Below, piece after piece: positions 1-14,146 of a stretch of DNA of 64,000 nucleotides. The position numbers and the translations under genes were made by a program. The first letter of the stretch is position 1. Each line of letters opens with the position of its first letter. This DNA comes from Parcubacteria bacterium OLB19. Lineage in GTDB: Bacteria > Patescibacteriota > Minisyncoccia > Phycocordibacterales > UBA918. The stretch covers positions 1,215 to 65,214 of the forward strand of contig JZEL01000012.1 of the NCBI GenBank assembly GCA_001567365.1, read 5' to 3'. Below the pieces are notes generated by a model. It worked only from the letters and a program-made list of their open reading frames with translations. It searched no databases and was not told where the DNA came from.

Positions 1-440
1 CTGGCAACACCTGCGCGTACGTAGCCGTGCGCCAAGAAGAAACTCAAGGCGAGGGTGTTCTTCGCCGAGACAGTGCAGTAGACCTGTCTGACCCGATACC
101 TCTTCGCATACTCGTCGAGTTTGCGGAGAAGCATACGACTGACACCTTTGCCTCTGGCTTCCTCACGGACAATCAGCGGGCTGATTTTGACTGTACCTTG
201 GTACTTGGACACGAAGTTGAGGATGCCGACGATGTTGCCGTCTTCGTCATCCAACGCCACATACATCAACTGTTCAGCCGAGAAGTGACCTTTCTTGTCC
301 TTGTTGCCTTTGGAGGCAGTTTCGACGATGCGCTTTGCGTGTGCCCGATGGTCGCCACCGTAGAACGGTTCAAGATGCTGGTGCATCATCTCCGCCACGA
401 CGGGCAAATCATCGAGCCGAACTCTTCGTACTCGTATCAT
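1..440 (-). CDS. GNAT family N-acetyltransferase; the gene's 3' end runs off the window start
   Basis: The minus-strand frame reads MIRVRRVRLDDL...IVREEARGKGVSRMLL, which carries the GNAT motif A (R/QxxGxG). ATG is at 440-438 with an AAAGGAG Shine-Dalgarno 9 nt upstream. The listed + ORF 27..509 is its antisense shadow. Confidence 0.7.
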   Translation of the reverse strand, partial: MIRVRRVRLDDLPVVAEMMHQHLEPFYGGDHRAHAKRIVETASKGNKDKKGHFSAEQLMYVALDDEDGNIVGILNFVSKYQGTVKISPLIVREEARGKGVSRMLLRKLDEYAKRYRVRQVYCTVSAKNTLALSFFLAHGYVRAGVA

Positions 441-509
441 TGCAAGGAACTCCTTTCGTTGATTTGTTGCAGGGCAGTCACCCGACTGCTTGAGCAACAA
501 AAAGGTTGA

Positions 510-529
510 CGTACCCATCGATGGGTACG
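510..529. repeat. Perfect 20-bp palindrome CGTACCCATCGATGGGTACG between the ASCH and GNAT genes
   Basis: The sequence is its own reverse complement. On the minus strand it is followed by TCAACCTTTTTG. It could be a terminator for the upstream genes or an operator. Confidence 0.5.
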
Positions 530-556
530 GGCTGGATATTACAATATAAAAACTAT

Positions 557-898
557 TTAGTCAATCAATTCAAGACGGATGCCTACGACACCATACTTCT
601 GCTCATCCTCGTCAGAGTAGAACTGTTTTATCTGGTTCAAAAGGAAATCACGGCTCTCTTCGCCAAAAAGTGATGGCTCGTGGTCCGCAAAAAGTTCTTT
701 GAATGTTTGGTAGCGCAACAGCCCCTTTACTACCGTAGTGACGTTGTTCTCTGACTTGTCATTTTCACTGAAAACAATCTGGTCGCCGATAGAGATTGTT
801 TGCCGCTTCTCATCAAAAAGGCGGCTTTCGATAACTTTTTTGCCAGATGCGATGTTGTTGTATGGCTCTGTCGCCAACTTCATTTGGTGCTGTTGCAT
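557..898 (-). CDS. ASCH-domain protein (PUA-like fold; same family as E. coli YqfB)
   Basis: The sequence MKLATEPYNNIASGKKVIESRLFDEKRQ...GDQIVFSE matches the ASCH N-terminal signature. The ORF extends to a TTG at 970, which would overlap the upstream gene. I prefer the ATG at 898 or 883. Confidence 0.6.
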   Translation of the reverse strand: MQQHQMKLATEPYNNIASGKKVIESRLFDEKRQTISIGDQIVFSENDKSENNVTTVVKGLLRYQTFKELFADHEPSLFGEESRDFLLNQIKQFYSDEDEQKYGVVGIRLELID

Positions 899-947
899 AG
901 TTGGTCTATTTATATCGCAAAAAAGACCATAAAACAAGGCGCGCTTT

Positions 948-1709
948 CTAAATCCGCTTGAGTTGTTCAATAACCCTATCTGCGAGGTCTCGCTTGTCTA
1001 TCATAAACGCATCCCACTTGTTGTTCCCTTTCTTGGACTTGCCAGAGACGAAGCCGAGCAGGTCATTACGGTCTACGTGTGCCATTTTGATAAAGTCAGG
1101 TGCGGGCACGAACCAGATGTAATCGTGCACATCACCCTTTGAAGTATCGAAGAGGCAAAATACAAAGCCCATAGAGAAACTATCAACCGCATTGTGCTTC
1201 TTCACGGTGGCAACAAATGGCTTGCTGAAATCGCCACTAAAGTTGCTCTTCACTTGAATGTATACGGACTTCAACGTGCCTTTCTCCTTCACGATGAGGT
1301 CAATGCCTTCATCATCGGAAATAGGACGGTAGCAAGAGAGGTTCTCGCCATAGAGCGTAATGAGTTCGGCTACTCGTGCCTCAACAATGTTGCCTTTCTG
1401 TGGTGAGTTGAGCGTTGAGGAGATTTTGTATTCCTTCTGCTCTTGCTCCTCCTTGAGAGGCGTTTCCTTCTCTGTATTGGTCCCGTTGAGAGCAAAAGTG
1501 CTTGGACCCGTCTTTACGAAAAGCGATTGGTCGCCACGCTTGTTCACGTCCACGACCAGTTGGGCGTTCATCGTTGCCTTTGGGGTTTTACCTGCGGTCT
1601 TGAGCCATCCACGCTTGAGGGCAATGTCAGTTATGTCGTCAGAGTGCATTGGCACGCCCGCTTCCTTCAGTATCTCGTATGCAACTCCTTTGAAAGTATT
1701 TGTGTTCAT
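948..1709 (-). CDS. HARE-HTH (winged helix) N-terminal domain plus C-terminal PD-(D/E)xK restriction-endonuclease-like domain; Mrr-like putative nuclease
   Basis: The N-terminus GVAYEILKEAGVPMHSDDITDIALKRGW...ATMNAQL resembles HARE-HTH / Mrr_N. The C-terminus has DDEGIDLIV...VYIQVK, a (D)...(E/Q)xK core. Its start lies 6 nt after the res stop. Confidence 0.55.
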   Translation of the reverse strand: MNTNTFKGVAYEILKEAGVPMHSDDITDIALKRGWLKTAGKTPKATMNAQLVVDVNKRGDQSLFVKTGPSTFALNGTNTEKETPLKEEQEQKEYKISSTLNSPQKGNIVEARVAELITLYGENLSCYRPISDDEGIDLIVKEKGTLKSVYIQVKSNFSGDFSKPFVATVKKHNAVDSFSMGFVFCLFDTSKGDVHDYIWFVPAPDFIKMAHVDRNDLLGFVSGKSKKGNNKWDAFMIDKRDLADRVIEQLKRI

Positions 1710-1715
1710 AGTGAT

Positions 1716-4325
1716 TTATGCGTTGAGGGCTTGGATGGCATCAACAACCTTCTGCTGATGCGAGAGTACCGTTCCATTGAAGATGATGCGGTACTCAAAA
1801 TCAGAGTTCAGGTCATTGAACTCTCTGAAGCCAACCTCCTTCATTAGTGGGTTACTGGTAATCTGGTGCTTTGAAAGTTCGCCCTTTTCGAGCCGCTCCT
1901 TTTCTGCCTTATAGGTCAGTTCCTCATCAGCACCTTTGACCTCAAGGACCACATAGCGTCCAAATGAGGTCTCGATAAGGAAGTCAGGAAAATACTTGGA
2001 GAGTTTGTGCGACCCGTCTATGAGGTTCTCTTGGTAATCGAAGAAAAACTCATTGTGTTTTTCGTTGGTGATACCTCCAGTGAAGTACACGTCCTTCACT
2101 TGTTCGCCGTCTTTGAGATGGGACCGCAAATAGTGGAACATTTCCAACTCATCCTTACTGTCGAAGTTGTAGGGATTTACGTGAAAGCCGAGACGAGACG
2201 TTCTCCCGTCCTGCTCTTCTTGTTCACGGTAGACCACCAAACTGCGTGCGAAGGCATCCGTGTCTGTTTCTTGGAGTTCACGTTTTACGTTGATTTTGAA
2301 TGGAAACGCCTTGGTTAGTTCAAGCGTCTCTTCCTTGATGGTCTCTTTCTTTTCATAGGCGATTGCTTGCGAAAGTATTTGGTCCGCTATGCCGTGAATG
2401 ACCAGATAGTTCTTCTCAACCGCCTTCACGAGGTCCTTTCGACTAATACCGTTGGCATCCAAAACCTTATTGATTTCGACAAACTTCAAGTGGGTCTTTT
2501 TCTGAATGAGTGCGGCAATGTCATAGAAGCCAAACTGTCGCTCGTGGGTCTCCACAGCGTCAGATGTAACGGTTATCGGGTCCCTATAGACTGCCTTGCC
2601 ATCATCGCTCAAGGCAATCTCTCGCTCTTGAATGATAGGGATGAGCCGCTTTTCAGGGACCTTCTTGAGGTCTATCTTTATTTGCTCTGGCTCTATTTTC
2701 TTTGATGAAAGTATCTCTACGAGTTTCCGCTTCACCTTCACGGTTCGCTTCTTCTCAACCACCAAATCAACTTGTACCTCGTTCTGTGGTCTGCCTGTGA
2801 GGTGCGTAATGTTGGTATTGAAGTTGTTTTCCAACTCTCTGTTCAAGACACGGTAGTTTTCATCGGAAAGAAATACACGTGCCTTTACGCTGTTGTCTCC
2901 GATACGTCGCAAACAACGGCACGATGCCTGCAAGACAAAGTTATTACTGGTGGAGTTCTTATAGAGAGCGACAGCAACGAGCGATTTGCAGTTCCAACCT
3001 TCCGTGCCTTTGTTCACGAGCAAAATAAACTGCTTTTCACTCTCTGGTGTATCGAGGCGGTTGAACTCGTAATCCGCCTCCTTCTTACGGTCTCCCGTGA
3101 ACGAAGAGTGCCACACAACTTTCTTTGAGAGGGCTATTTTCCGCTTCTGAAGGGCTTTGTCGAGGTTTTCTTCGAGTTGTTCGAGCATTGATATATCTGT
3201 CGTGTAGAAGGCGATTTTAGGTAGCCGTCCCGTAATACGCCCCTCGCCATATTCCTTCCAAAAAATCTCCACGACAGAGTTCACAAAGTCCTCTGATTGC
3301 ACATCATCGCTACTACCGTGATTGCTCACAATGACCTGCTTCAAGATGCCTTTTTCAACGCCTTGCTGAAGCCCGAAGGTGTATACCGTATCGGTCAGCA
3401 TTATGTTCTGCACATACGGAGTTCCCGTGAGGTTCGCCACAGTCACCACGTTAGTGTTCTCTGCGAGGTGGTGGATGGTCTTGCGGGACTGATTGAGTTT
3501 CTTTGACACATCTTCGCCGTATGAGTGATGTGCTTCATCTACGAACACAGCAAGGTTCTCAAGCCCTTGGATGGCAAGGAGACGCTTGTTGGTACTCTCT
3601 TTACGAAGTTCAAAGAGACGATTGCCACGATGCTCGTCAGTCCAGTTTCGGAGAATGATTTTCGATGAGTTGGAAACGATGACGTTGTAGTTGCCGAGTG
3701 GATTGAGTGGCGTTTCTGGCTTCTCCAGATACCAATACTTCACATTGAGTAGGATGTCCTCGTACTCACGTGGAATGACAGAGCCGTAATCAAAGGTCTT
3801 TATCTCCTTGAGCACTTCAACGATGCCTGTGTCTGCGGGACCAAAAACAAGAGCGTTTTTTGCGAACCGTGTATCTTCTGGGTGATGGAAGGAGACCACG
3901 AACTCGTACATCATCAAAACGCCCATCAAAATTGTCTTACCTGCACCCATCGTGAGAGCAAGTACGTAGTTGGCATAGCCGTATTCTGCAAAGCCGAGTT
4001 CTTCCAGTTTCTTTTGGATACGCTCCGTACGCTTCTCTTTGGAAAGGTCGCCCCACAGTTCAATCACGCCTTGCTCAAAGCCAAGCACCTTCAAAAAATC
4101 CGTGCTCTCACCGGAAAAGTCAGCGACTATCTCTGGGACTGGTCGGTTGTTTTGTATCTCCTTGAGGTAGATGTAGGTCTCAAGGGCTTCACGTTGCGGC
4201 TCGTGAAGAAAGTTGTTGCTCTCGATATGAGCAAGGATGTTGCGGGTCTCTGGGTAAATGCCGTTGTAGCCCTCTTCTCGCCACTGTCGGACCCTATGTT
4301 GTAGTTCTTGAACGAATAGTTGCAT
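1716..4325 (-). CDS. res: Type III restriction enzyme Res subunit (SF2 helicase domains plus C-terminal PD-ExK nuclease)
   Basis: Walker A is LTMGAGKT and the DEAH box is VFVDEAHHS. Motif VI is QASCRCLRR. The C-terminus has VVLEVKG. It starts 4 nt after the mod stop. Confidence 0.85.
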   Translation of the reverse strand: MQLFVQELQHRVRQWREEGYNGIYPETRNILAHIESNNFLHEPQREALETYIYLKEIQNNRPVPEIVADFSGESTDFLKVLGFEQGVIELWGDLSKEKRTERIQKKLEELGFAEYGYANYVLALTMGAGKTILMGVLMMYEFVVSFHHPEDTRFAKNALVFGPADTGIVEVLKEIKTFDYGSVIPREYEDILLNVKYWYLEKPETPLNPLGNYNVIVSNSSKIILRNWTDEHRGNRLFELRKESTNKRLLAIQGLENLAVFVDEAHHSYGEDVSKKLNQSRKTIHHLAENTNVVTVANLTGTPYVQNIMLTDTVYTFGLQQGVEKGILKQVIVSNHGSSDDVQSEDFVNSVVEIFWKEYGEGRITGRLPKIAFYTTDISMLEQLEENLDKALQKRKIALSKKVVWHSSFTGDRKKEADYEFNRLDTPESEKQFILLVNKGTEGWNCKSLVAVALYKNSTSNNFVLQASCRCLRRIGDNSVKARVFLSDENYRVLNRELENNFNTNITHLTGRPQNEVQVDLVVEKKRTVKVKRKLVEILSSKKIEPEQIKIDLKKVPEKRLIPIIQEREIALSDDGKAVYRDPITVTSDAVETHERQFGFYDIAALIQKKTHLKFVEINKVLDANGISRKDLVKAVEKNYLVIHGIADQILSQAIAYEKKETIKEETLELTKAFPFKINVKRELQETDTDAFARSLVVYREQEEQDGRTSRLGFHVNPYNFDSKDELEMFHYLRSHLKDGEQVKDVYFTGGITNEKHNEFFFDYQENLIDGSHKLSKYFPDFLIETSFGRYVVLEVKGADEELTYKAEKERLEKGELSKHQITSNPLMKEVGFREFNDLNSDFEYRIIFNGTVLSHQQKVVDAIQALNA

Positions 4326-4329
4326 AGGG

Positions 4330-6178
4330 CTATTTGACTGTTATTTCGTGGGTCTCAAAATACTCTTCGCCGAGTACATCCACGATTTTGACCGCCACGG
4401 TGTAAGTACCTCCTCTCTCATAGGTGTGTGAGTAGGCGGTTTCGACCAGTTCACCCTTCTTCTCCTTGTGAAGGAACGCCTCCGCATTGAACGATGTATC
4501 CGCTTTCTTCTGACCTTCACCGTAGTTCACGTCAATCACGATGTGCTCGATGGCTTGGCGGTAATCAAAAATGTTTACACGCTCCTTCATAGACAAGCGA
4601 CCATCGTTTTCGAGTTCAAGACGCTTCATCAAGAGTGGCGAATAGTAGTCCTTGACCTCAACAGAAAGGGTCTTGCCTTTGGTGATGTAAGAGATGCTTG
4701 CTTCCGTTGGTTTCTTGAAATCAAGTTCCTTTTTGTCGGTTTGGATGTCTCGTATCTCAATCTCAACGCCTGTCTTGTTTTCTTTCTTGGCGAAGTCACG
4801 TACATCAAGTTCCGCTCCACTACAAATGACAACCACCTTATTCTCAAAGGTATTTTCTTTCTGCTTACTTGCAGTTTTCACCGTGAAGAGGTCCTTGTTC
4901 TTTTTGATTGCGTCAATGATTTCAGCAATGTCCATCTTTGAGAGGACCCGATTTGGCGAAATGATTTTCACATAATCCTGTCCAAGCGTACCGTCAAAAT
5001 CACCACGGGAAAGTTCATCTATCCTATAGGTCTCGATGAGAAGTTGCCGTGCCTGAAGGTCATTATTGAACACGTCGTAATGATTGACGTTGTAGACCTT
5101 GAAAGCGGTGAAGCCCTTGAAGTCCTTGCCGAACAGATTTTCCTTCATCTGCTCTTTGATGGTCCTGTTCAAACGCTCTGTCGTGGAAATAATCGAACCT
5201 TTGTTGATGTCGCATCCAAGCCACCTACGATTGAGTTTTTGAGCCACAGCACACGTTGTACCAGAACCAACGAAGCAATCGAGTACAAGGTCTCCTTCGT
5301 TTGAACCATATCGAATGACACGCTCCAACAACTCTTCTTTTTTCTGGGTTGGATAATCTACATACTCGTTCTTCGAGATGGTGCGTCCGATGTCCCACAC
5401 ATCATCAATGACTTTATCGGAATACTCTGCGTAGATTTTGTTACCATCCTCATCCAAGAGATTGACCGTCTTACCATCAACTTTTTTACGCAACGCACGC
5501 TTGGTGGTCTCTTCCTTTTGGATACGTACTTCGTTGCCAGTAAAATCCGCACTCTTTGAGTAGTGATATATCGTGTCGTGGTTCTTATCGAGTGACTTGC
5601 CACCAGTTGCAAACTTGTCGTGGTAATGCCAGACAATCTCGTTACGAAGGTTCTCCTCGCCAAAAATCTCATCCAAAATGAGACGCAGGTGTGCGTTTTT
5701 GTGCCAATCGCAATGAAGAAATATAGAGCCAGTGTCGGCAAGCAACTCACGCATTATCAAAAGCCGCTCATACATAAACTGGAGGTACTCATCCTTCTCC
5801 CACATATCGGTGTATTGCATCTCCTCAATCACGCTCTGCTCTACACCCTCGACCTTTTGACCGTTTATTTTGACCTTCTTGATATAGTCCGCCTTGCTGT
5901 CAAACGGAGGGTCAATGTATATCAAATCCACCTTGCCTCGATACTCCTTGAGGAGGTGTGCGAGGACTTGCTTGTTGTCACCCCAAAAAAAGTTTATTCC
6001 AATCCTTCGCCTTTACGTCGCCGTAGACCTCTTTTTCTTGAGCGGGAAACCAATCAATACTCTTCGGTGCACGCTTTCCATACCACTCAAGGAGTGCTCG
6101 ACCCTTTGCGGCAGAAAGTTTTTGAACGGTGTTTTTATCGCCACCACTGGCGGTTTTTGTTGTTGATTTTGTTTTCAT
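4330..6178 (-). pseudogene. mod: Type III Mod N6-adenine DNA methyltransferase, split by a -1/+1 frameshift at a T7 tract (minus-strand sense). N-terminal 66 aa is ORF 5978..6178; the catalytic body is ORF 4330..5931.
   Basis: The body has DPPF (IYIDPPFDSK) and FxGxG (VLDCFVGSGTT) in beta-class order. The upstream ORF reads ...WYGKRAPKSIDW...KDWNKLFLG* and runs into GDNKQVLAHLLKEYRGKVDLIYIDPPF in the next frame. One fewer T at 5985-5991 restores a single ORF. Confidence 0.75.
5985..5991. repeat. A7/T7 homopolymer, followed by GGGG, at the mod frameshift site
   Basis: + strand CCCCAAAAAAAG, minus strand CTTTTTTTGGGG. The frame change maps here. Confidence 0.8.
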
Positions 6179-6180
6179 AC

Positions 6181-6340
6181 CTTGGTCGGGTTTTATTTTC
6201 TGGCGGTGTTCTATGTGACCAACACAAAACTCCCCACCAGACAGAAAGCGACAACCGTTTCCGATTGCCCGTAACCCTTTCGGATTACGACCCGACCAAG
6301 AGTGCTCCTGCTGATGAGGAGTTTTCTATCTTGGTCGGGT
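6181..6340. promoter_or_regulatory. Three copies of the 11-mer CTTGGTCGGGT immediately upstream of mod: direct at 6181-6191, inverted at 6290-6300, direct at 6330-6340. Candidate operator.
   Basis: Exact matches read off the sequence. Copy 1 abuts the mod start codon at 6178-6176. Confidence 0.4.
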
Positions 6341-6400
6341 GTTTGGTGCCATACCTCAAGTGAGGGTTAGGCACGCTTGTAATGTTTTATGTCTTTTTCA

Positions 6401-6640
6401 TCATAGTTTTTGATTGAGCATCTTCACTATATCTTCCTTGCGGTAGCGTCGAACACGCTTTGCCCCAAGACGAATAGCAGGCAAGATGCCTTGCTTGTCC
6501 CATTGTCGAAGGGTATTTGGATGCACCTTCAACAACTCACACGCCTCGCTCAAAGTGAGTAGTTCTGGTACTTCTTTACTGTTGTCGTCTTTTTTTTGCC
6601 ATTTATTTTCTACCTCACATTTGATACCATTATCATACAC
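6401..6640 (-). CDS. Excisionase/MerR-type helix-turn-helix DNA-binding protein (Xis-like; possible controller of the R-M operon)
   Basis: The C-terminus ELLTLSEACELLKVHPNTLRQWDKQGILPAIRLGAKRVRRYRKEDIVKM is a classic excisionase-family HTH. The ORF runs to 6814 but would then overlap the + gene. An in-frame GTG at 6640 is a plausible start. Confidence 0.55.
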   Translation of the reverse strand: MYDNGIKCEVENKWQKKDDNSKEVPELLTLSEACELLKVHPNTLRQWDKQGILPAIRLGAKRVRRYRKEDIVKMLNQKL

Positions 6641-6695
6641 GACAGACACAACGTTCACAATGTGCACGGACCTGTGGATGCGGATGTAAATGTAG

Positions 6696-8945
6696 ATGGC
6701 ACGCAAAAAGAAGACAGTTGAAGACGGCTTGGCAGAAGCCGACGTGCTCCTGCCTTTGGATACCCTAAAAGAGATAGAGGGCTTCTTTCCGCTTGGAAAG
6801 CCAACCATTGACACGACTTACGGGATGCTTTCGCTCAAGGTAAATGAGATAAACGAGAGCGAGAAAGAAATCATCTACGAAGGGTCCAAAACCAACTTGT
6901 CACGCACCGTGAACATCCACGGCGAATACTCCAAGGAGGAGGTCATTTTCTATACCTACGTTCTTCTACACGCCAAATACGACAGTTGGAACCCGTTTAC
7001 ATCAGTGAAATCAGAGAAGGCGGACAAGAGTAACTTGGGTGATTTCTGCCACGACTTTTTTACCAAGGCGAAGGACTATACCTACAAAGGCGACAGAGAT
7101 GAGTTCAGCACAAAACGCATCTTCGAGATGTTTTTGTACTGCTCCGTACAAACCAAGGAGGAATACGACCTACCGCCATTTGAGGAGTATTGGCGTGTTT
7201 TTGAGGCAAAAGATGTCCTGTTGCCAACAACCTATGAACTTCTCTTCAAGCACGAAAAGAACTCCATCAGAAAGGAGGCGGTAGCCCAGAAAGCGTTTGC
7301 CGCACAGAAGGAGTTTATCTACCTACGATACCTGCTTGAGCAACTCTTTTCACGGAAGGAGTACAAGCACTTCATTGACCTCTATCTATCGAATACAGAT
7401 GTGGTAACAGGACACGGGACTTTTCCCTATGAAGCAGAACTGTACTTTGCGTTCGTTGAGAGTTGTATTGCATTGAAGGACTTTGAAACCCTTCAGAAAA
7501 ACCTTGTAGACAGGGACGCTATGCACTTGGGAGGACGCTATAGCAAATCCTTCTTTGAAGGGATTGCAAAGTATTTTGACGGCAAATATGCCGATGCCGA
7601 GGTTCACTTCAAGAAAGCCATTTTGTCTGATGATGAAGGTCGAGACGTGACCCGATGTGCCACCATCTTCTATATCGCCACCTTGCTCAAGCAGAAGAAA
7701 AACGATGCGGCAAAGGGATACATCTTCGACCTCAAGCCACGAGAACCATACGCCGAGAACTACGATTTGGATTATTTTGGTTATAAGGAAATCGAGAAGG
7801 AGTTACTTGCAGAACTCCAGAAACTCGATGTATCAGAAGAGCAGAAAAACGCTCTGAAGTTCTATGAAGCGTCTATCCTCTATGAGGGTTCTTGGCATCA
7901 CCACGACAAGGAAACAACATCTTCTTTGGTGAAGAAACTCAAGGAAGTACGTGGTTATGATAACGACTACACCTACCACCATCTTCTCTCTGAAGGATAC
8001 GCAAAACTTGGAGTTCACGACAAAGCGTACAAGGCATTACTGAAATCGTTTGCCTTTCAAGAGGGAGACATAGACGTTGGCTACTCTGCCTCTATAGAGA
8101 AAACATCGCCTGATTTTCAGGAAGGGTTGCTCTCTTATCTTGAAAAAGATGTGCTCATATATGGCAGTAAAGCGTGGAGTTCTTTGGCAAGAAATGAGTT
8201 GAGGAGTATTGCTGATTATTGGTGGAAGAACAAGAAATACGCTTTATTGACCGAACTTTGCAATCTGATTGTTGAATACGATGCGTCCTTCAATGACTTT
8301 GAGGACTACCTATTTGAGTTTGCCTACTCGTTCAAGGAAATCGGAGAAGCAGAAGACGCAAAGCACTATTACGAACTCTATATACAGAAAAAAGGTGAAA
8401 ACTCATCTGTGCTCAACAATCTCGCTATCATTTATGAGCAGTTGGGAAACTTGAAAAAAGCCAAGGAACTTATCAAAAAAGCACACGAACTTACGGATGG
8501 AAATGATGGTGTCGTCAATCGCAATAAAAAGCGTTTGGTAGACGATGAGAAATCAAAAGGGACCGCTACTGTACCAGAGAAGAAGACCACGGAAAATGCA
8601 AAGCCCGCAACCGACTTCATCGAGTATGACCCCGCCTATGGCAAACTCGTTTACCGTGGAAAAGAGAAAATGGTCAGAAGTTCACCGATGATGCCGATTA
8701 TGCTCAAAGAACTCTTTGGAAATCCTGCCAACACAAAAAATGCGGTGGACCTGCTTGAAATACTCAACAGGGACACCACTTCATCCAATCGAAGCATACT
8801 TGATTGCATCAGGCAGATAAACAAGAAAATCAAAGAACTGGGCGTGAAGGAAGACCCGTTTACATATAGGTCCGACAAAGTGCTCACCAAGGAAACATAC
8901 GTCCCGCTCCTGCGAATGAAGGTGAGCGAAGTTGAACCAAAGTAA
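6696..8945 (+). CDS. Large (749 aa) TPR-repeat protein with a winged-helix-like C-terminal region; function unknown
   Basis: It is a long uninterrupted ORF in GC-rich DNA. There is a TPR-like stretch (NLAIIYEQLGNLKKAKELIKKAHEL). No catalytic motif was recognised. Confidence 0.55.
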   Translation: MARKKKTVEDGLAEADVLLPLDTLKEIEGFFPLGKPTIDTTYGMLSLKVNEINESEKEIIYEGSKTNLSRTVNIHGEYSKEEVIFYTYVLLHAKYDSWNPFTSVKSEKADKSNLGDFCHDFFTKAKDYTYKGDRDEFSTKRIFEMFLYCSVQTKEEYDLPPFEEYWRVFEAKDVLLPTTYELLFKHEKNSIRKEAVAQKAFAAQKEFIYLRYLLEQLFSRKEYKHFIDLYLSNTDVVTGHGTFPYEAELYFAFVESCIALKDFETLQKNLVDRDAMHLGGRYSKSFFEGIAKYFDGKYADAEVHFKKAILSDDEGRDVTRCATIFYIATLLKQKKNDAAKGYIFDLKPREPYAENYDLDYFGYKEIEKELLAELQKLDVSEEQKNALKFYEASILYEGSWHHHDKETTSSLVKKLKEVRGYDNDYTYHHLLSEGYAKLGVHDKAYKALLKSFAFQEGDIDVGYSASIEKTSPDFQEGLLSYLEKDVLIYGSKAWSSLARNELRSIADYWWKNKKYALLTELCNLIVEYDASFNDFEDYLFEFAYSFKEIGEAEDAKHYYELYIQKKGENSSVLNNLAIIYEQLGNLKKAKELIKKAHELTDGNDGVVNRNKKRLVDDEKSKGTATVPEKKTTENAKPATDFIEYDPAYGKLVYRGKEKMVRSSPMMPIMLKELFGNPANTKNAVDLLEILNRDTTSSNRSILDCIRQINKKIKELGVKEDPFTYRSDKVLTKETYVPLLRMKVSEVEPK

Positions 8946-9030
8946 ACCTAACTTTGCTCAACAGGCAAAAAGTACGCTGACTGCGTGCTTTTTCTTTTTG
9001 GCTGAAAGAGTGCACTTACCACTAAAGCCA

Positions 9031-9333
9031 ATGCAAATGTTTATGCGTAAAAACAAGCAAGACGAGGGGCATATCCCCTTGGATGATTACACAAACTATT
9101 ACTACACCAACGACATTGACGTTGCCTCAATGCTCGTATGCAAGGGCTACAACCTCAAGGAGGTTGTAGCAATCTCGCACAACAAAGCGACCTTTGTGTT
9201 CAAGAACCACACTGCCATCAACGATGCCGTAGACGGATTTTGGAGCAATCGTATAGAGGTCCGCCCACTTGAGTTTGCAAATGCTCGCAAGAACTTGAAA
9301 TCACGCATATACGGGATGCGGAAAGGTTATTAG
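9031..9333 (+). CDS. Small protein (~100 aa) of a type seen next to mobile-element replication genes; function unknown
   Basis: The ORF 8932..9333 starts at TTG and overlaps the TPR gene. ATG at 9031 gives MQMFMRKNKQ...YTNDIDVASMLVCKGYNLKEV...FVFKN...RIEVRPLEF. Confidence 0.4.
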   Translation: MQMFMRKNKQDEGHIPLDDYTNYYYTNDIDVASMLVCKGYNLKEVVAISHNKATFVFKNHTAINDAVDGFWSNRIEVRPLEFANARKNLKSRIYGMRKGY

Positions 9334-9346
9334 CCCTCACCGCACA

Positions 9347-10699
9347 ATGTATATGCAACAAGAAAAACTAAACGAAAAGAAGGAGAAGCCAATCACAAAG
9401 ACCTCAATCATTACACCAGAGGCAATCTACGAGATGGGCTTCAGTCGTGTTGAGAACAAGACCTATTTCTTCAAGGCAGACAGGCGTGGACTGACCGAAA
9501 GTTTCCTTGAGCAGGTAGAGATTGGCGGCAAGAAGTATATCCCGATACCACCAGACAATAATCTCGTGGACAAGGGCGTGGTTCTCTTTCCTTCAATGCC
9601 TCTGCCGTATGAAAGCGAGGCGGCAATCCTCAAAGAGATACAGGACTTCATCCACAAGCATCTCGACATCAGCGAGGTGTTCGAGCAGATAGCCACCTAT
9701 TACGTTCTCTTCACGTGGCTCTACGACAGGTTCAATGAGGTCCCATATCTCCGAGCCATCGGCGACTTTGGAAGCGGTAAATCACGCTTCCTACAAGCCA
9801 TTGGCATCCTCTGTTACAAGCCCATATTCACTGGAGGTGCGACTACGCCAAGTCCTATTTTCAGGATAGTGAACGAGGTCAAAGGCACACTCATCATTGA
9901 TGAAGCCGATTTCAAGTTCTCCGATATGACTTCTGAAATCGTGAAGATACTCAACACGGGATACCAGAAAGGCATACCCGTTCTGCGGTCCGAGGGTAAG
10001 GGCACGTTCGAGGTGAAAGCGTATGACGTGTTTTGTCCGAAAATCGTAGCCACTCGTGAGACCTTCTCCGACAAAGCCCTTGAAAGCAGGTTCTTGGTTG
10101 AGGAGATGGGTGCGGGAAAACTTCGTGACGGCATCCCACGAACGCTCGATGAGGACTTCTATCAGGATGCGGAAGCCATCCGAAACAAACTCTTGATGTG
10201 GCGGCTCAAAAACTACTTTCAGCCAATAGAACGCAAGGAGGAGTTGATTGACGGTATCCATCCACGACTGAACCAGATAGTCATACCGCTTCTTTCAATC
10301 ATCAAAGATGAGGACATCAGAAACCGTCTCAAGACCTTCATTATCCAATACAACACCGAACTCGTTGCGGACCGTGGTTTGTCTTGGGAAAGCGACATTG
10401 TGTTCGCCATCCTCAAACTTGAGTACGCAAAAGGCGTGTCCGAAGTCACGGTCAAAGAGATTACTGATGAAGTCAATCGAGAAAGCGAGATGGACGATGA
10501 CCGCCTTCAAGCACGCAAAGTGGGGTGGTACTTGCGAACAAAACTCCAACTCAAATCCTACAAGACCCGCAAGGGGTTTGTCCTTTCCTTCAAAGAGAAC
10601 CGCAAACGGTTGGATATGTGGAAGGAACGCTTTGGCATCACTGATGCCGACATACGAGGTGAACAAGTGAACGATGTGAACGTCTCTGAAAACTTTTAG
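9347..10699 (+). CDS. P-loop NTPase, putative primase/helicase-type replication or mobilisation protein of the island
   Basis: Walker A is GDFGSGKSRF and Walker B is TLIIDEADF. A downstream Asn motif VKILNTGY has SF3-like spacing. The 327-aa minus ORF 10295..11278 is its antisense shadow. Confidence 0.55.
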   Translation: MYMQQEKLNEKKEKPITKTSIITPEAIYEMGFSRVENKTYFFKADRRGLTESFLEQVEIGGKKYIPIPPDNNLVDKGVVLFPSMPLPYESEAAILKEIQDFIHKHLDISEVFEQIATYYVLFTWLYDRFNEVPYLRAIGDFGSGKSRFLQAIGILCYKPIFTGGATTPSPIFRIVNEVKGTLIIDEADFKFSDMTSEIVKILNTGYQKGIPVLRSEGKGTFEVKAYDVFCPKIVATRETFSDKALESRFLVEEMGAGKLRDGIPRTLDEDFYQDAEAIRNKLLMWRLKNYFQPIERKEELIDGIHPRLNQIVIPLLSIIKDEDIRNRLKTFIIQYNTELVADRGLSWESDIVFAILKLEYAKGVSEVTVKEITDEVNRESEMDDDRLQARKVGWYLRTKLQLKSYKTRKGFVLSFKENRKRLDMWKERFGITDADIRGEQVNDVNVSENF

Positions 10700-10717
10700 C
10701 AGATAACAAACAACACT

Positions 10718-11227
10718 ATGACAAACACAAAAGGTGGTCCAAAAACCGAAGAAGGAAAGGCAGTATCCCGCTTCAACGCCCTCAAGCACGGGCTGTTGAG
10801 CAAGGCGGTCCTGCTTGAAAGCGAGGATGCAAAAACGCTCAACGAACTCACTACGGGTATGCGTGAGGAGTTTAGCCCGCAAGGTCCTCTTGAAGAGATA
10901 CTTGTAGACAGGATTGTGTCCTGCTACTGGCGGCTCCGAAGGGCTGTGTGGGTCGAGAAGAACGCAATGGATTGGTATGAGGAGGATGAGGAGATGATGG
11001 TCTTCCCAGAGCCAGACGAGCAGGTAGCCCGCAAGCGTATCAAGAACACACTTGGAAACGACAGTATCGAAAAGGTGCTCCGATACGAGACCGCTATTGA
11101 GCGGAGTATGTTCCGTGCACTCCACGAACTTGAGAGGTTGCAAGCAAAAAGGAATGGCAAAGATACGCCAATCCCTGCTGTGGTTGATGTAACCGTGGAT
11201 AGTTCGTTTGGTAAAAACACTCTCTAA
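10718..11227 (+). CDS. Hypothetical protein (169 aa)
   Basis: Clean ORF in the GC-rich island with an ATG start. No recognisable motif. Confidence 0.4.
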   Translation: MTNTKGGPKTEEGKAVSRFNALKHGLLSKAVLLESEDAKTLNELTTGMREEFSPQGPLEEILVDRIVSCYWRLRRAVWVEKNAMDWYEEDEEMMVFPEPDEQVARKRIKNTLGNDSIEKVLRYETAIERSMFRALHELERLQAKRNGKDTPIPAVVDVTVDSSFGKNTL

Positions 11228-11284
11228 AAAGAAGTGAAAAAGAGCCAGAAACCCTATTGATTTCGGAAGAAAAAACACACGATT

Positions 11285-11902
11285 ATGAGTAAATCAGAAG
11301 CAGATTGGTGCAAAAAGATAGAAATATGGTGGCTCCTGAAGGGGGTCAAGGAAACAAATGGATACAAACGCTCCACGGTGTCTTGGGGTGAGAACGGCTC
11401 ACACGGAAGCATCACTGTTGAGGTATCCATTTGGGGCGATGAGAAATATGCCCGCTTCCTTTACAGTCAGACGGACCACAGCGGCGAGAAGAAGGATTTT
11501 GATTACAAGGTCCCGATTATTGAGACCCCGTGCCACTTTGGAGGTTCACGGTATTGGTTTCAGTGCTCGCTCTATAAAGCGGATAAATACTGCGGGCGGC
11601 GTGTTGGCGTTCTCTACAAGGACGGTGACTGGTTCGGATGCCGTCATTGCTACGAACTGACCTACAGTTCAAGGAACAAGGATAGACGATACAAGCACTA
11701 TCCGACTTTTCGAGTGCTCGAACTTCATCAGCAAATAGACAAACTCGAAGAGAAAGCGAAGCGATATACCTACAAAGGTAAGCCAACCAAGAAGCGTCAG
11801 AGGTTAGAGAAACTTTATCGTCAAACAATGTTCTACGTTCGTGCCTTCCGTGCAAGCGAGAAAGGTATTGATTTTGACGTATCTCGTGGTCGAGATTTTT
11901 AG
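11285..11902 (+). CDS. Hypothetical Cys-rich (zinc-ribbon-like) protein (205 aa)
   Basis: Cys pattern CHFGG...C(x14)CGRR...CRHC. Clean ORF. Confidence 0.4.
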   Translation: MSKSEADWCKKIEIWWLLKGVKETNGYKRSTVSWGENGSHGSITVEVSIWGDEKYARFLYSQTDHSGEKKDFDYKVPIIETPCHFGGSRYWFQCSLYKADKYCGRRVGVLYKDGDWFGCRHCYELTYSSRNKDRRYKHYPTFRVLELHQQIDKLEEKAKRYTYKGKPTKKRQRLEKLYRQTMFYVRAFRASEKGIDFDVSRGRDF

Positions 11903-11924
11903 TCGAAAATGTTATGATTAGTGG

Positions 11925-11993
11925 GCTACACAAAGGTGAATACGATGCTCCACGGTTTGAACCTAACGAGGGGCAACGCCCGCCTTTGTGTAG
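11925..11993. repeat. 12-bp inverted repeat pair (GCTACACAAAGG ... CCTTTGTGTAGC) with a 46-bp spacer, ~170 bp upstream of the recombinase gene
   Basis: Exact reverse-complement arms at 11925-11936 and 11983-11994. Confidence 0.35.
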
Positions 11994-12162
11994 CAACAGG
12001 GCATCAAAGCGTTGTCCCTCATTGAGTTCAAGCCAGCCCTTTTCCAAGGAAACGCTTGATGCTCTTGAAGAACTTGGCGACGTGCTCCGAGGTATCCGCC
12101 GCCGAATGATTGCCGAGGGATATGAACTGGTGAACGGTCATATCCAAAAGGTGCAATCGTAA

Positions 12163-13866
12163 ATGTATATGAAGAAAGCAAGCGTCAAAACAGAAAAGGA
12201 CCTCATTGAAGAGATACTCTCTGGCAAGTATCGTGATTTTTATTTGATATACAACCGCAAGAGTACAGACGAGGCGGACAACCAGAAGAACTCTATTTCA
12301 TACCAGAAGGCAGAAAACAGCCGCTACGCTGTGCGTGAGCGTCTGCCTATTGCTCAAATCACTCTCAAGGGGTTTAGTACGAACGGCATCATCTCCGAGA
12401 AGCACTCTGGCTTCAAGGAGGATTTTGACGTGATGATAAATGACGAAGGATTGGTTCAGTACCGCATTGACCGCCCGAAGTTCCAAAAGATGCTTCAGTT
12501 TGCCAGTCAGGGCTACTTCAAGGGTGTTGTGTGTCTTTGTTGGGACCGCATCAGCCGCAATAAAGGAGATGATACTGTCATACGCAAACTAATGCGTAAG
12601 GGTGTTGATTTCAGATTTGTATACGCCAACTACGACAAAACCAGTTCAGGTGCTCTGCATATGGACATTGACGGGATGTTCTCACAACATCACTCACGAG
12701 TAACCAGTGAGAAGGTCACGCTGACAACTCGCAACAATCGGGAGAAAGGTATCTGTACCTATCGTGCACCTATCGGCTATTTGAATGAAGGCAAAATGGA
12801 CCACAAGCCATTTGACCCTATGCGTGCACCAATCATCAAGAGGATGTTTGAACTCTACGACACAGGAGATTGGAGTTTGGCTGACATTGCCCGCTACGCC
12901 AACGAGCAGGGCTTCACGACTGTCCCTATGAGGCGAAGGAGAACAAAGGAAGAAATGCTCGATGAGGACTTTGAGATGGAAGAAATCCCACAGGTCTCAC
13001 GTCCCGTGACAGAGAACCATATCAGCCGCATCCTCACCAATCCGTTCTATACGGGAAAGGTCCTCAACTCTGAAGGTAGATATATTCCGAGCATCAGCCA
13101 CGAAGCACTGGTAGATGAAGAGGTATTCAATCGGGTCCAAGCCGTCCTCAAAAAGAAGCAGACGAGCATCCACTACACCGAGAAACTCGACCAACCGCTC
13201 CGAGGGATTGTACGTTGTGCACATTGTGAACGTGTATACACTCCTTACACCAAGAAAGGCATCCAGTATTACAACTCACGATGCACCAAGGATTGCCAGA
13301 ACACTCTCAAGAACATCAACTTTACCTTTCTCGCCGAGAAAATAGAGGGTCTGCTTTCGGGTCTCTACTTTACGGACGAAGAGATTGGACAGATGGACGC
13401 TCGCATCGGCACTGATGTTGCACTCCTTGAAGAAAAGCGACAGAAGGAGTTGGACCAGATGGAACGCAAGAAGCGAAAGATACGAGAGGACCTTGCATAC
13501 ATCCGCTCGAACAAACTCACGCTCCTCAAGACAGGCGTATACACGCCAGAAGGTCTCATCGAAGAGGAAGATAAGTTGAACGCCGAACTCGCCGACCTTC
13601 AAAGCAAGGAGCAGGTATCTGACGTTGCGATGCACGAGACAATGAAGGATGTTCAAAAACTTTCAGAACTCGTAAAAGAGGTTGTTCCTTATTACTCTTT
13701 TGCAAAACCGCACGAAAAGGAGGCAATCGTTCGTATTATTTTTTCAGAACTCTACCTTTCTGAAAATACGTTGAAATATAAATGCAAAACGCTTTCGAGT
13801 GTCTCGAAAGCCGTTTGCAACCTGTGTGTGACCCCACGGAGAATCGAACTCCGATTTGCAGGATGA
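12163..13866 (+). CDS. Large serine recombinase (integrase)
   Basis: The N-terminus has YLIYNRKSTDEADNQ, the catalytic Ser context Y-x-R-x-S-T-x-x-Q. Recombinase-domain features include CAHCERVYTPY...YYNSRCTKDC Zn-ribbon-like cysteines and a C-terminal coiled coil. The ORF tail overlaps the tRNA 3' end. Confidence 0.85.
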   Translation: MYMKKASVKTEKDLIEEILSGKYRDFYLIYNRKSTDEADNQKNSISYQKAENSRYAVRERLPIAQITLKGFSTNGIISEKHSGFKEDFDVMINDEGLVQYRIDRPKFQKMLQFASQGYFKGVVCLCWDRISRNKGDDTVIRKLMRKGVDFRFVYANYDKTSSGALHMDIDGMFSQHHSRVTSEKVTLTTRNNREKGICTYRAPIGYLNEGKMDHKPFDPMRAPIIKRMFELYDTGDWSLADIARYANEQGFTTVPMRRRRTKEEMLDEDFEMEEIPQVSRPVTENHISRILTNPFYTGKVLNSEGRYIPSISHEALVDEEVFNRVQAVLKKKQTSIHYTEKLDQPLRGIVRCAHCERVYTPYTKKGIQYYNSRCTKDCQNTLKNINFTFLAEKIEGLLSGLYFTDEEIGQMDARIGTDVALLEEKRQKELDQMERKKRKIREDLAYIRSNKLTLLKTGVYTPEGLIEEEDKLNAELADLQSKEQVSDVAMHETMKDVQKLSELVKEVVPYYSFAKPHEKEAIVRIIFSELYLSENTLKYKCKTLSSVSKAVCNLCVTPRRIELRFAG

Positions 13867-13900
13867 AAACCTGCTGTCCTAGCCGTTAGACGATGGGGCC
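13829..13900 (-). tRNA. tRNA-Glu (anticodon UUC)
   Basis: Minus-strand read: GGCCCCA-T-CGTCTAACGGCTAGGAC-AGCAGG-TTTTCAT-CCTGC-AAAT-CGGAGTTCGATTCTCCG-TGGGGTC-A. It has a 7-bp acceptor stem and a D-arm identical to bacterial tRNA-Glu. U33 and A37 flank the anticodon TTC. The T-loop is TTCGATT. CCA is not encoded. Confidence 0.8.
13877..13896. repeat. Direct repeat copy 1 (TCCTAGCCGTTAGACGATGG); the 5' half of the tRNA-Glu gene
   Basis: 20/20 identical to 14004-14023. Confidence 0.7.
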
Positions 13901-13944
13901 GAATATTTAATTGTACTTTGGACTTCATCGCTATTGGCGGTACC

Positions 13945-14001
13945 GGTTTTCATTGATGAAAACCATTCCTGCGGATAAAACAGTATCCCATACTGTTTTA
14001 T
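13945..14001. repeat. Two perfect hairpins between the tRNA and repeat copy 2: GGTTTTCAT-TG-ATGAAAACC and ATAAAACAGTAT-CCC-ATACTGTTTTAT
   Basis: 9-bp and 12-bp perfect stems read directly. Neither has an adjacent U-tract on either strand. Confidence 0.5.
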
Positions 14002-14003
14002 TA

Positions 14004-14023
14004 TCCTAGCCGTTAGACGATGG
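14004..14023. repeat. Direct repeat copy 2 (TCCTAGCCGTTAGACGATGG); an orphan tRNA 5'-half fragment and candidate att remnant
   Basis: 20-bp exact match. The flanking acceptor bases differ (GGCTCCA vs GGCCCCA). No matching 3' half follows, so this is a fragment and not a second tRNA. Confidence 0.7.
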
Positions 14024-14073
14024 AGCCTAAATACTCAATAAAGTTTTTTATTCTAGTCACTAAGATCAGAGCT

Positions 14074-14099: not shown

Positions 14100-14146
14100 C
14101 ATATTTATAGCAGAAAACGGTAAATATGTGAAGAGGGGAGTTTGGG

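What the first reader, a model, noticed from the sequence alone, without database searches (positions are those of the whole stretch)
557..6640. Type III R-M genes transcriptionally fused with a HARE-HTH/PD-(D/E)xK nuclease, an ASCH protein and (nearby) a GNAT: candidate composite defence module
mod, res, the HARE-HTH-nuclease and the ASCH gene lie head-to-tail on the minus strand with 4-6 nt gaps or overlaps. HARE-HTH and ASCH/PUA-like domains are known from comparative genomics to accompany restriction systems and are predicted to read modified nucleic acid. An Mrr-like nuclease plus a PUA-like reader next to a canonical Type III pair would combine modification-dependent and modification-blocked restriction in one operon. 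I have not seen this arrangement described.
Basis: partly seen in the sequence, partly recalled or inferred. Interest (0 to 1): 0.7.

Follow-up and report, generated by a model that had tools for sequence, protein, structure and literature searches.

The report
Restriction operon with rider nuclease on mobile element
A mobile DNA element in an uncultured candidate-phyla bacterium carries a Type III-like restriction-modification pair followed by a separate, portable nuclease, while the neighbouring ASCH and GNAT genes are unrelated chromosomal genes, so this is an ordinary defence island and not a new five-gene system.

Summary
The gene calls are correct. mod, res, a HARE-HTH/PD-(D/E)xK nuclease, an ASCH gene and a GNAT gene lie head-to-tail on the minus strand. 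The proposed composite module holds only in part.

- **One unit:** HTH_17, mod, res and the HARE nuclease are the defence cargo of a ~13-kb serine-recombinase integrative element (window ~948-13,900) beside tRNA-Glu. The element recurs at 89-99.7% nucleotide identity in other metagenomes.
- **Boundary:** it ends at the HARE stop codon, so ASCH and GNAT lie outside. GNAT follows ASCH in 50 of 87 ASCH loci, none with HARE or res, and no HARE locus (0 of 76) has ASCH.
- **HARE nuclease:** this conserved family (mostly 55-85% identity across phyla) sits beside R-M systems of many types. At least 28 of 55 loci have an amino-methyltransferase within three genes, and none has a C5 methyltransferase.
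- **Optional cargo:** related elements carry other genes in the same slot, and the nuclease persists where mod/res have decayed.
- **Most likely role:** an independent, probably modification-dependent, backup nuclease of a kind already described by comparative genomics.
mod and the HTH_17 gene each carry a +1 homopolymer frameshift relative to a 99.7%-identical contig, so the Type III half may be off.

The parts
3..440 (-). GNAT acetyltransferase gene, 5' part (runs off the window). This is a chromosomal gene and not part of the defence module.
   Evidence: Pfam Acetyltransf_1 7.1e-14. The same GNAT follows ASCH in 50 of 87 ASCH loci. The relatives are 424-441 aa GNAT-ASCH fusions.
452..529 (-). 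Conserved structured RNA leader between ASCH and GNAT (helices P1, P2 and P3, plus an anti-SD stretch). It belongs to the ASCH-GNAT unit.
   Evidence: 27-sequence alignment A7. 95% of cells are paired against 37-52% in slid controls, and 10 pairs have compensatory changes. No Rfam match at E<=10.
557..898 (-). Stand-alone ASCH-domain protein (113 aa). This is a chromosomal gene outside the mobile element.
   Evidence: Pfam ASCH 1.9e-10. PDB PH0355 6.5e-14. The 120 best homologues listed are 80-96% identical and the contexts examined hold no R-M genes. Nucleotide homology to ASCH-GNAT loci covers window 1-938.
939..947 (.). Junction between the chromosomal flank and the integrative element.
   Evidence: L098 homology ends at 938. 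L091 homology starts at 948 and L077 homology at 957.
948..1709 (-). HARE-HTH plus PD-(D/E)xK (Mrr-like D...QxK) single-chain nuclease, 253 aa, intact. It is the terminal cargo gene of the element.
   Evidence: Pfam HARE-HTH 1.4e-19. Invariant E110, D137, Q152, K154. Model pLDDT 82.8. Foldseek matches to the SPARDA nuclease, I-Ssp6803I, Hjc, NhoI and DpnI. 804 homologues.
1716..4325 (-). Type III-like Res: SF2 DEAH helicase with a C-terminal PD-ExK nuclease, 869 aa, intact.
   Evidence: Pfam ResIII. In the family alignment ResIII hits 39 of 45 members, and TnsA-like or RE_endonuc C-terminal domains also hit. Invariant G127/G129/K130/T131, nearly invariant D263, invariant E264, nearly invariant H266, and invariant D781, E795, K797.
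4330..6178 (-). Type III-like Mod (beta-class amino-methyltransferase, DPPF motif). It is disrupted by a +1 frameshift at the homopolymer 5985-5991.
   Evidence: Pfam N6_N4_Mtase 2.7e-50. PADLOC MTase_III 6.3e-60. T6 in L090 against T7 here.
6401..6602 (-). HTH_17/MerR-excisionase-like small DNA-binding protein. It is conserved upstream of mod in all element relatives and is either a controller or an excisionase. Here its start is frameshifted (T8 run at 6590-6597).
   Evidence: Pfam HTH_17 1.8e-13. PHROG excisionase/regulator. Present in L090-L096 and L013. A8 against A7.
6696..12162 (+). Element backbone genes of unknown function: a 749-aa TPR protein, DUF5659, a 450-aa P-loop-like protein and small ORFs.
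   Evidence: Pfam. The same genes occur in the same order in L090, L091, L092, L094 and L096.
12163..13866 (+). Large serine recombinase (integrase) of the element.
   Evidence: Pfam Resolvase plus Recombinase. PHROG integrase 6.4e-59.
13828..13900 (-). tRNA-Glu flanking the element (integration site region).
   Evidence: ARAGORN. tRNA-Glu also lies next to the recombinase in L091 and L081. L091 homology ends at 13900.

Best explanation
Window ~948-13,900 is a ~13-kb integrative element, with a large serine recombinase, inserted beside tRNA-Glu in a candidate-phyla-radiation (Patescibacteria-type) genome.

**Defence cargo.** The cargo is the minus-strand row HTH_17, then a 222-nt spacer, then mod, res and the HARE-HTH nuclease. 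Stop-start distances are 4 and 6 nt, so the last three genes are probably co-transcribed and translationally coupled.

**Type III-like pair.** Mod is a beta-class amino-methyltransferase, probably N6-adenine. Res is a DEAH helicase with a C-terminal PD-ExK nuclease. Mod would mark host DNA, and a Res-Mod complex would cut unmarked DNA.

**HARE nuclease.** The 253-aa protein is a self-contained, horizontally mobile nuclease that rides at the 3' end of R-M operons of many types. Its HARE-HTH domain most likely reads a base modification, probably on cytosine, and directs the Mrr-like nuclease to foreign modified DNA. That would be Type IV-like backup restriction, independent of Mod and Res.

**ASCH and GNAT.** These are chromosomal neighbours forming their own conserved pair with a structured RNA leader. 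They are not part of the defence module.

**State of this copy.** mod and the HTH_17 gene each carry a +1 homopolymer frameshift. If the sequence is correct, the Type III half is switched off while res and the HARE nuclease stay intact.

**Shown:** gene content, element boundaries, linkage statistics, nuclease fold and motifs, and the frameshifts. **Inferred:** co-transcription, substrate, modification dependence, and whether the frameshifts are real.

**Confidence.** The stated 0.6 is a blend. It is about 0.85 for the anatomy (the element, its boundaries, and the exclusion of ASCH and GNAT) and about 0.45 for the Type IV-like mode of action of the HARE nuclease.
For: **Element and boundaries**
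- Serine recombinase and tRNA-Glu.
- L091 is 89% identical over window 948-13900 with different flanks. L090 is 99.68% identical over 3143-13849.
- The ASCH-GNAT flank homology ends at 938.

**Type III features**
- Pfam and PADLOC MTase_III.
- Res family with ResIII plus a C-terminal nuclease and invariant D781/E795/K797.

**HARE nuclease**
- Pfam HARE-HTH 1.4e-19.
- Invariant E110/D137/Q152/K154.
- Model and Foldseek matches.

**Independence and portability**
- Neighbours of 55 orthologues include Type I, IIG and III components, D12-class methyltransferases, AlwI, Tsp45I, BREX and Shedu.
- 28 of 55 have an amino-methyltransferase-like gene within three genes; odds ratio 3.9, p=4.6e-5.
- Median upstream gap is 15 nt.
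- The same element core carries other cargo after res in L092/L093 (small ORFs) and in L094/L096 (RT plus bAvd).
- HARE is intact next to a truncated res and no mod in L081/L082.

**Cytosine-modification inference**
- 0 C5-methyltransferase-like proteins among 869 ORFs, against 48 ORFs carrying the amino-methyltransferase motif IV ([DNS]PP[YFW]).
- Literature prediction that HARE-HTH discriminates modified DNA (PMC10853773, PMC4738411, PMC11037411).

**ASCH/GNAT exclusion:**

**Frameshifts:**
Against: - No biochemical evidence exists for any member of this HARE-nuclease family. Modification dependence is inferred only from the domain's reputation and from neighbour statistics.
- Half of the orthologues sit next to methyltransferases. 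In the one large survey of winged-helix Type IV enzymes, 87% had none within three genes (PMC11037411). This fits an R-M accessory role at least as well as a classical stand-alone Type IV role.
- The nuclease Pfam hits are below the curated cut-offs.
- Co-transcription is inferred from spacing only.
- The two frameshifts could be homopolymer errors of the window's assembly. Other genes in the window look intact, but read data are not available.
- No empty integration site was recovered, and no terminal repeats were found.
Confidence: 0.6

Rival explanations
1. One reading: mod, res, the HARE nuclease, ASCH and GNAT form one composite defence operon in which ASCH acts as a PUA-like reader of modified nucleic acid.
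For: All five genes are co-oriented. ASCH and HARE-HTH have both been proposed as modified-base readers (PMC4738411).
Against: - The element boundary lies between HARE and ASCH.
- 0 of 76 HARE loci have ASCH or GNAT. 0 of 87 ASCH loci have HARE or res, and 1 of 87 has a weak MOD hit.
- ASCH-GNAT is a conserved pair with its own RNA leader.
- The closest element copies have a PrsW-like membrane protein or other genes after HARE.
Confidence: 0.03
2. The HARE-HTH nuclease is an accessory subunit of R-M complexes. It would dock on translocating Res or HsdR motors, or on methyltransferases, and add a second cleavage activity or sense methylation status. It would not be an independent Type IV enzyme.
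For: It typically lies directly downstream of large R-M genes with very short gaps (median 15 nt). 51% of loci have an adjacent amino-methyltransferase. This is unlike the stand-alone winged-helix Type IV enzymes (PMC11037411).
Against: - The partner systems belong to unrelated types (Type I, IIG, III, D12 methyltransferases, BREX) while the nuclease stays mostly 55-85% identical.
- It is absent from other copies of the same Type III element.
- It is retained after loss of mod and most of res.
Confidence: 0.15
3. The nuclease serves the mobile element rather than the host. It would act as a homing-type or addiction nuclease that helps the cassette spread or be retained.
For: It is the terminal gene of the element, ending at the junction. 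There is structural similarity to the PD-(D/E)xK homing endonuclease I-Ssp6803I. It persists next to the recombinase after R-M decay in L081. High identity across phyla implies frequent transfer.
Against: Most orthologues sit in R-M operons without a nearby recombinase; the Recombinase domain was seen in only 2 of 105 upstream neighbours. The Foldseek matches are generic for the fold.
Confidence: 0.08
4. The Type III half is fully functional, and the two frameshifts are assembly errors in homopolymers of the window sequence.
For: Both changes are single extra bases in 7-8-nt A/T runs. A 99.68%-identical short-read contig has both genes intact.
Against: A scan of 200 homopolymer runs found no other convincing frameshifted gene. 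The flagged grpE/dnaK junction is two intact genes. Two of the three 1-nt indels fall in the control and methylase genes, as expected for selected inactivation.
Confidence: 0.4

Closest known systems
Type III restriction-modification systems (EcoP15I/EcoPI type)
   Same: mod lies upstream of res with a 4-nt gap. Mod is a beta-class N6_N4 amino-methyltransferase (PADLOC MTase_III 6.3e-60). Res has SF2 helicase motifs (GAGKT, DEAH) and a C-terminal PD-ExK nuclease.
   Different: Res belongs to a divergent family. There is no sequence match to any solved Res and no PADLOC restriction-enzyme model hit. The only family hit is a partial NCBIfam match to the BPTD_3080 family (77 bits against a cut-off of 800). 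Mod is frameshifted in this copy.
HARE-HTH-REase fusion proteins of prokaryotic conflict systems (Aravind & Iyer 2012, as summarised in PMC4738411, PMC10853773, PMC12839542)
   Same: The architecture is an N-terminal HARE-HTH plus a C-terminal PD-(D/E)xK nuclease. The location is next to DNA-modification-based defence genes, especially N6-adenine systems. The predicted role is discriminating modified DNA, or acting as a backup effector.
   Different: Here it rides behind a complete Type III-like pair that has its own nuclease, on a serine-recombinase element in CPR bacteria. No member of this family has been tested.
Mrr and other Type IV (modification-dependent) restriction enzymes; the E. coli immigration control region (hsdRMS-mrr-mcrBC)
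   Same: A D...QxK variant of the PD-(D/E)xK site, an N-terminal winged-helix-type reader, and co-location of modification-blocked and modification-dependent restriction in one island.
   Different: The Mrr_cat hit is below cut-off (16.8 against 21 bits). Coupling to R-M genes is much tighter than for the characterised winged-helix Type IV enzymes, of which 87% have no methyltransferase within 3 genes (PMC11037411).
Stand-alone ASCH proteins (PH0355/PF0455; the YqfB/EOLA1 family of N4-acetylcytidine deacetylases)
   Same: A 113-aa single ASCH domain, matching PDB 2z0t at 6.5e-14.
   Different: It has no link to R-M genes. It is paired with a GNAT(-ASCH) gene through a conserved RNA leader. Its activity is unknown, and YqfB did not appear among the PDB sequence matches at E<=10.

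Membership tests
Type III R-M system | Mod is a beta-class amino-methyltransferase (motif IV DPPY/F before motif I) | tested here: met
   N6_N4_Mtase 2.7e-50. PADLOC MTase_III 6.3e-60 over model positions 100-608 of 616. IDPPF precedes FVGSGTT in the sequence.
Type III R-M system | Res has an SF2 helicase core plus a C-terminal PD-(D/E)xK nuclease | tested here: met
   ResIII in 39 of 45 family members. Invariant G127/G129/K130/T131, nearly invariant D263, invariant E264, nearly invariant H266, and invariant D781/E795/K797. TnsA-like or RE_endonuc hits at the C-terminus.
Type III R-M system | Sequence relationship of Res to characterised Type III Res proteins | tested here: not met
   No PDB hit to EcoP15I Res with either the single sequence or the profile. 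No PADLOC REase model hit.
Type III R-M system | Intact mod, which is required for both methylation and restriction | tested here: not met
   A +1 frameshift at 5985-5991 relative to the intact P0241/L090. It could be an assembly error.
Type III R-M system | ATP-dependent cleavage needing two inversely oriented unmethylated sites | not testable with these tools
   This needs biochemistry.
HARE-HTH-REase fusion | N-terminal HARE-HTH domain | tested here: met
   PF05066 at 70.7 bits against a cut-off of 25.9, residues 5-74.
HARE-HTH-REase fusion | C-terminal PD-(D/E)xK fold with catalytic residues | tested here: met
   Foldseek probability 1.00 to the SPARDA nuclease, I-Ssp6803I, Hjc and NhoI. 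Invariant E110, D137, Q152, K154 on helix 1, strand 2 and strand 3. Pfam nuclease hits alone are below cut-off.
Type IV modification-dependent restriction enzyme | Acts alone, without a cognate methyltransferase | tested here: inconclusive
   It persists without mod/res in L081. However, 28 of 55 orthologues have an amino-methyltransferase within 3 genes.
Type IV modification-dependent restriction enzyme | Cleaves only modified DNA | not testable with these tools
   The only indirect hint is that no C5-methyltransferase-like protein occurs among 869 neighbouring ORFs.
   0 of 76 HARE loci and 0 of 87 ASCH loci show the combination. The element boundary lies between the genes.
Phase-variable Type III mod (phasevarion) | A long simple-sequence tract in mod that is maintained among relatives | tested here: not met
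   The tract is only T6/T7 and is reduced to T4 in L092, L094 and L096. The A7 tract of the HTH gene is absent in L091.
MADS (methylation-associated defence system) | MAD1 HTH protein plus the other mad genes | tested here: not met
   The HTH_17 gene hits PADLOC mad1 (2.6e-10) but scores 25.6 against a cut-off of 80 bits in NCBIfam. No other mad component was detected.

The most novel reading that the evidence does not exclude
The 253-aa HARE-HTH nuclease family may be a dedicated 'rider' of amino-methyltransferase R-M operons of any type. It would be a portable fail-safe effector that reads the DNA modification state through HARE-HTH and fires when the primary R-M system is evaded or disabled. 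That would make it a distinct accessory class and not a classical stand-alone Type IV enzyme. This would explain three observations: its terminal operon position, its 51% methyltransferase adjacency, and its unusually high conservation across phyla.
Probability: 0.15. Interest if true: 0.6.

Novelty: new member of a known kind. Interest (0 to 1): 0.3.

Why it matters
- **Claim corrected:** the tempting five-gene 'new defence system' is really two unrelated units that abut at a mobile-element junction.
- **What remains:** a clean example of defence cargo (a Type III-like R-M pair plus a HARE-HTH nuclease) on a serine-recombinase element that circulates among candidate-phyla-radiation bacteria. 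The slot after res is variable and can also hold a diversity-generating retroelement.
- **Worth an experiment:** the HARE-HTH nuclease family is large, untested and tightly linked to amino-methyltransferase systems. One experiment on modified DNA substrates would settle what HARE-HTH reads, which also bears on the eukaryotic ASXL proteins.

Tried and rejected
- **Sequence search of solved structures.** Res and the HARE protein gave nothing useful against the PDB. A 45-sequence Res profile hit only a Type I HsdR fragment at E=0.007.
- **PADLOC.** No model matched Res, HARE, ASCH or the backbone genes.
- **Plasmid and phage collections.** tblastn of the HARE protein found no match in either.
- **Exact-sequence look-up.** The window's HARE protein is not on record, so the source sample and its reads could not be identified.
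- **Attachment-site repeats.** A search between 500-1100 and 13600-14500 found only chance 8-11-mers. No tRNA-Glu lies next to ASCH in element-free relatives, so no empty site was recovered.
- **General frameshift-error hypothesis.** A scan of 200 homopolymer runs flagged five sites. The strongest (59533) is the intact grpE/dnaK junction. The test is therefore not decisive.
- **Phase-variation hypothesis.** Rejected because the tracts are short and not conserved.
- **Iterative HMM from the window's Res.** It found no relative in any of the 76 HARE loci.
- **Aravind & Iyer 2012 (PMC3272235).** The paper is not held in the library. Its content is cited only through later papers.
Full report
**1. 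What is in the sequence**

On the minus strand of window 1-6700 lie seven features, in transcription order:
- an HTH_17/MerR-excisionase-like gene (6401..6602; Pfam 1.8e-13);
- a 222-nt spacer;
- mod (4330..6178; N6_N4_Mtase 2.7e-50; PADLOC MTase_III 6.3e-60);
- res (1716..4325, 869 aa; ResIII 3.8e-5);
- a 253-aa protein (948..1709) with HARE-HTH at 1.4e-19, and PDDEXK_5 and Mrr_cat hits below their cut-offs;
- an ASCH protein (557..898; 1.9e-10);
- a GNAT gene starting at 440 that runs off the window.

The mod-res gap is 4 nt and the res-HARE gap is 6 nt. HARE to ASCH is 49 nt, and ASCH to GNAT is 116 nt.

**2.

mod is split. Codons 1-64 (5978..6178, ending ...NKLFLG*) are out of frame with the rest. 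Deleting one T from the run 'CTTTTTTTGGGG' restores NKLFWGDNKQVL...IDPPF. The repaired protein is 100% identical to P0241, an intact 612-aa Mod.

P0241's contig, L090, is 99.68% identical to window 3143-13849 and has T6 where the window has T7. The same comparison shows A8 in the window against A7 in L090, directly after the ATG of the HTH_17 gene. In the window that ATG now opens an 8-codon ORF.

- **Against a general assembly error:** a scan of 200 homopolymer runs found no other convincing broken gene. The strongest flag was the junction of intact grpE and dnaK.
- **Against programmed phase variation:** the tracts are not conserved in diverged relatives. The mod tract is T4 in L092, L094 and L096, and there is no A-run in the L091 HTH gene.
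- **What remains:** real inactivating mutations or residual homopolymer errors. I cannot tell which without reads.

res and the HARE gene are intact.

**3. The operon is cargo of a mobile element, and ASCH/GNAT lie outside it**

- **Integrase and tRNA.** A 567-aa large serine recombinase (12163..13866; Pfam Resolvase plus Recombinase; PHROG integrase 6.4e-59) overlaps a tRNA-Glu (13828..13900).
- **Recurrence.** L091 is 89% identical to the window from 948 to 13900. It carries the same genes in the same order: recombinase, small ORFs, a 448-aa protein, a TPR protein, then HTH_17, mod (613 aa), res (869 aa) and HARE (253 aa). Its flanking genes are entirely different. tRNA-Glu also lies beside the recombinase in L091 and L081.
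- **The other flank.** Homology of the window to ASCH-GNAT loci without the element (L098, 91%) runs from 1 to 938. The junction therefore lies in 939-947, immediately after the HARE stop codon.
- **Closest copies.** In L077-L080 and L003 (94-98% nucleotide identity), the gene after HARE is a 159-aa PrsW-like membrane protein, not ASCH.

**4. ASCH and GNAT are their own unit**

The 120 best ASCH homologues listed are 80-96% identical and widespread in CPR bacteria. They sit among housekeeping-type genes.

I fetched 80 ASCH loci from metagenomes and added 7 earlier ones. The window's GNAT homologue follows ASCH on the same strand in 50 of these 87 loci. HARE and res occur in none, and mod-like sequence occurs in one. 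Conversely, none of 76 HARE loci contains ASCH, GNAT or this Res.

The ~100-120-nt ASCH-GNAT spacer is conserved and folds into three helices with compensatory changes, plus a CCUUU stretch complementary to the GNAT ribosome-binding site. In total, 95% of cells are paired against 37-52% in slid controls, 10 pairs change on both sides, and 0 of 500 shuffles reach the observed values. Rfam has no match.

**5. What the HARE protein is**

- **Family size and spread.** There are at least 804 homologues. Identity is mostly 55-85%, across Saccharibacteria, Paceibacteria, Doudnabacteria, Omnitrophota, Acidobacteriota, Verrucomicrobiae, Legionella-like and other MAGs. None occurs in the plasmid or phage collections.
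- **Catalytic residues.** Alignments show invariant E110, D132, D137, Q152 and K154.
- **Structure.** An AlphaFold model (pLDDT 82.8) places E110 on the first helix of the C-terminal domain, D137 at the start of strand 2, and Q152-x-K154 on strand 3. Foldseek matches PD-(D/E)xK nucleases: the SPARDA nuclease domain, I-Ssp6803I, Hjc, NhoI, DpnI and EcoRV.
- **Conclusion.** It is a HARE-HTH plus Mrr-like (D...QxK) nuclease with an apparently intact active site.

**6. Is it linked to R-M?**

Yes, but not to this system in particular. Neighbours of 55 orthologues include:
- ResIII (12 proteins);
- N6_Mtase (12), N6_N4_Mtase (11) and the D12 class (5);
- Methylase_S (9), Eco57I (9) and HsdR domains;
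- AlwI, Tsp45I, EcoRI methylase, BrxL and Shedu.

At least 28 of 55 loci have an amino-methyltransferase-like gene within three genes, an enrichment over more distant genes of the same loci (odds ratio 3.9, p=4.6e-5). Of the 55 orthologues, 46 have a same-strand upstream neighbour, at a median gap of 15 nt. No C5-cytosine methyltransferase-like protein was found among 869 ORFs.

The family is not an integral part of this Type III system:
- Elements with the same recombinase/DUF5659/TPR backbone and the same HTH_17-mod-res core (Mod 68-72% identical) carry other cargo after res. L092/L093 have three small ORFs, and L094/L096 have a reverse transcriptase plus bAvd.
- In L081/L082 the HARE gene (89% identical) is intact beside a res remnant of 342 codons, with no mod.

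**7. Mechanism proposed**

The Type III-like pair works in the usual way. Mod marks an asymmetric site, and the Res-Mod complex cuts unmarked DNA using ATP. Membership is supported for architecture and motifs. It is not supported for sequence relationship to characterised Res proteins.

The HARE nuclease is most likely an independent single-chain enzyme in which HARE-HTH recognises modified DNA and positions the nuclease. The neighbour methyltransferases are exclusively amino-methyltransferases, and the nuclease sequence barely changes between partner systems. A cytosine modification of invading DNA is therefore the most economical target. This step is inference. It agrees with published predictions for HARE-HTH-REase proteins next to N6A R-M, Dnd and BREX systems (PMC4738411, PMC10853773, PMC12839542).

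The tight methyltransferase linkage differs from characterised winged-helix Type IV enzymes, of which 87% have no methyltransferase within three genes (PMC11037411). This keeps an accessory or fail-safe role open.

**8. Verdict**

The R-M plus HARE-nuclease combination is a new member of a kind already known from comparative genomics. The ASCH and GNAT genes are bystanders. Interest is modest at 0.3. The untested HARE nuclease family and the unannotated RNA leader upstream of the GNAT gene are the items worth an experiment.

Noticed in passing
window 441-556 (minus strand), structured core about 452-529: A conserved structured RNA lies between ASCH and the GNAT gene. It has three helices with compensatory changes, plus a CCUUU stretch complementary to the GNAT Shine-Dalgarno sequence. 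It is present in at least 27 distinct loci and has no Rfam match. It is a candidate new cis-regulatory leader (riboswitch-like) for a GNAT(-ASCH fusion) gene in CPR bacteria.
   Followed up: partly
window 3-898; loci L087, L089, L097-L176: ASCH followed by a GNAT gene is a conserved pair (50 of 87 loci, ASCH identity 49-98%). In L087 and L089 the GNAT protein is 424-441 aa and itself ends in a weak ASCH domain. This hints at a write/erase pair for an acetylated nucleobase or nucleoside.
   Followed up: partly
window 5985-5991 and 6590-6597: Two +1 homopolymer length differences relative to the 99.68%-identical L090 break mod and the HTH_17 gene. There is also a 9-bp in-frame indel in mod at 5115-5123 and a 1-nt indel at 13790 near the recombinase 3' end.
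   Followed up: partly
L094:11444-12833 and L096:11439-12836: In related elements the slot after res holds a reverse transcriptase (RVT_1) plus bAvd, which is a diversity-generating retroelement. In L092/L093 the slot holds three small ORFs followed by a second serine recombinase. It is a variable cargo hotspot.
   Followed up: no
window 6696-12162: The element backbone comprises a 749-aa TPR protein, DUF5659, a 450-aa protein with a GSGKS P-loop, and small ORFs. It has no Pfam, PHROG or PADLOC function, yet it is conserved in order across all element relatives.
   Followed up: no
window 6179-6400: The 222-nt spacer between the HTH_17 gene and mod keeps its length (210-222 nt) in L090, L091, L094 and L096 but is 28 nt in L092. 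It contains terminator-like hairpins and may be the control region of the operon.
   Followed up: no
L081:7183-10765: This is a decayed copy of the element. The serine recombinase and tRNA-Glu are followed directly by the C-terminal 342 codons of res and an intact HARE gene. The backbone, the HTH gene, mod and the 5' part of res are gone.
   Followed up: partly
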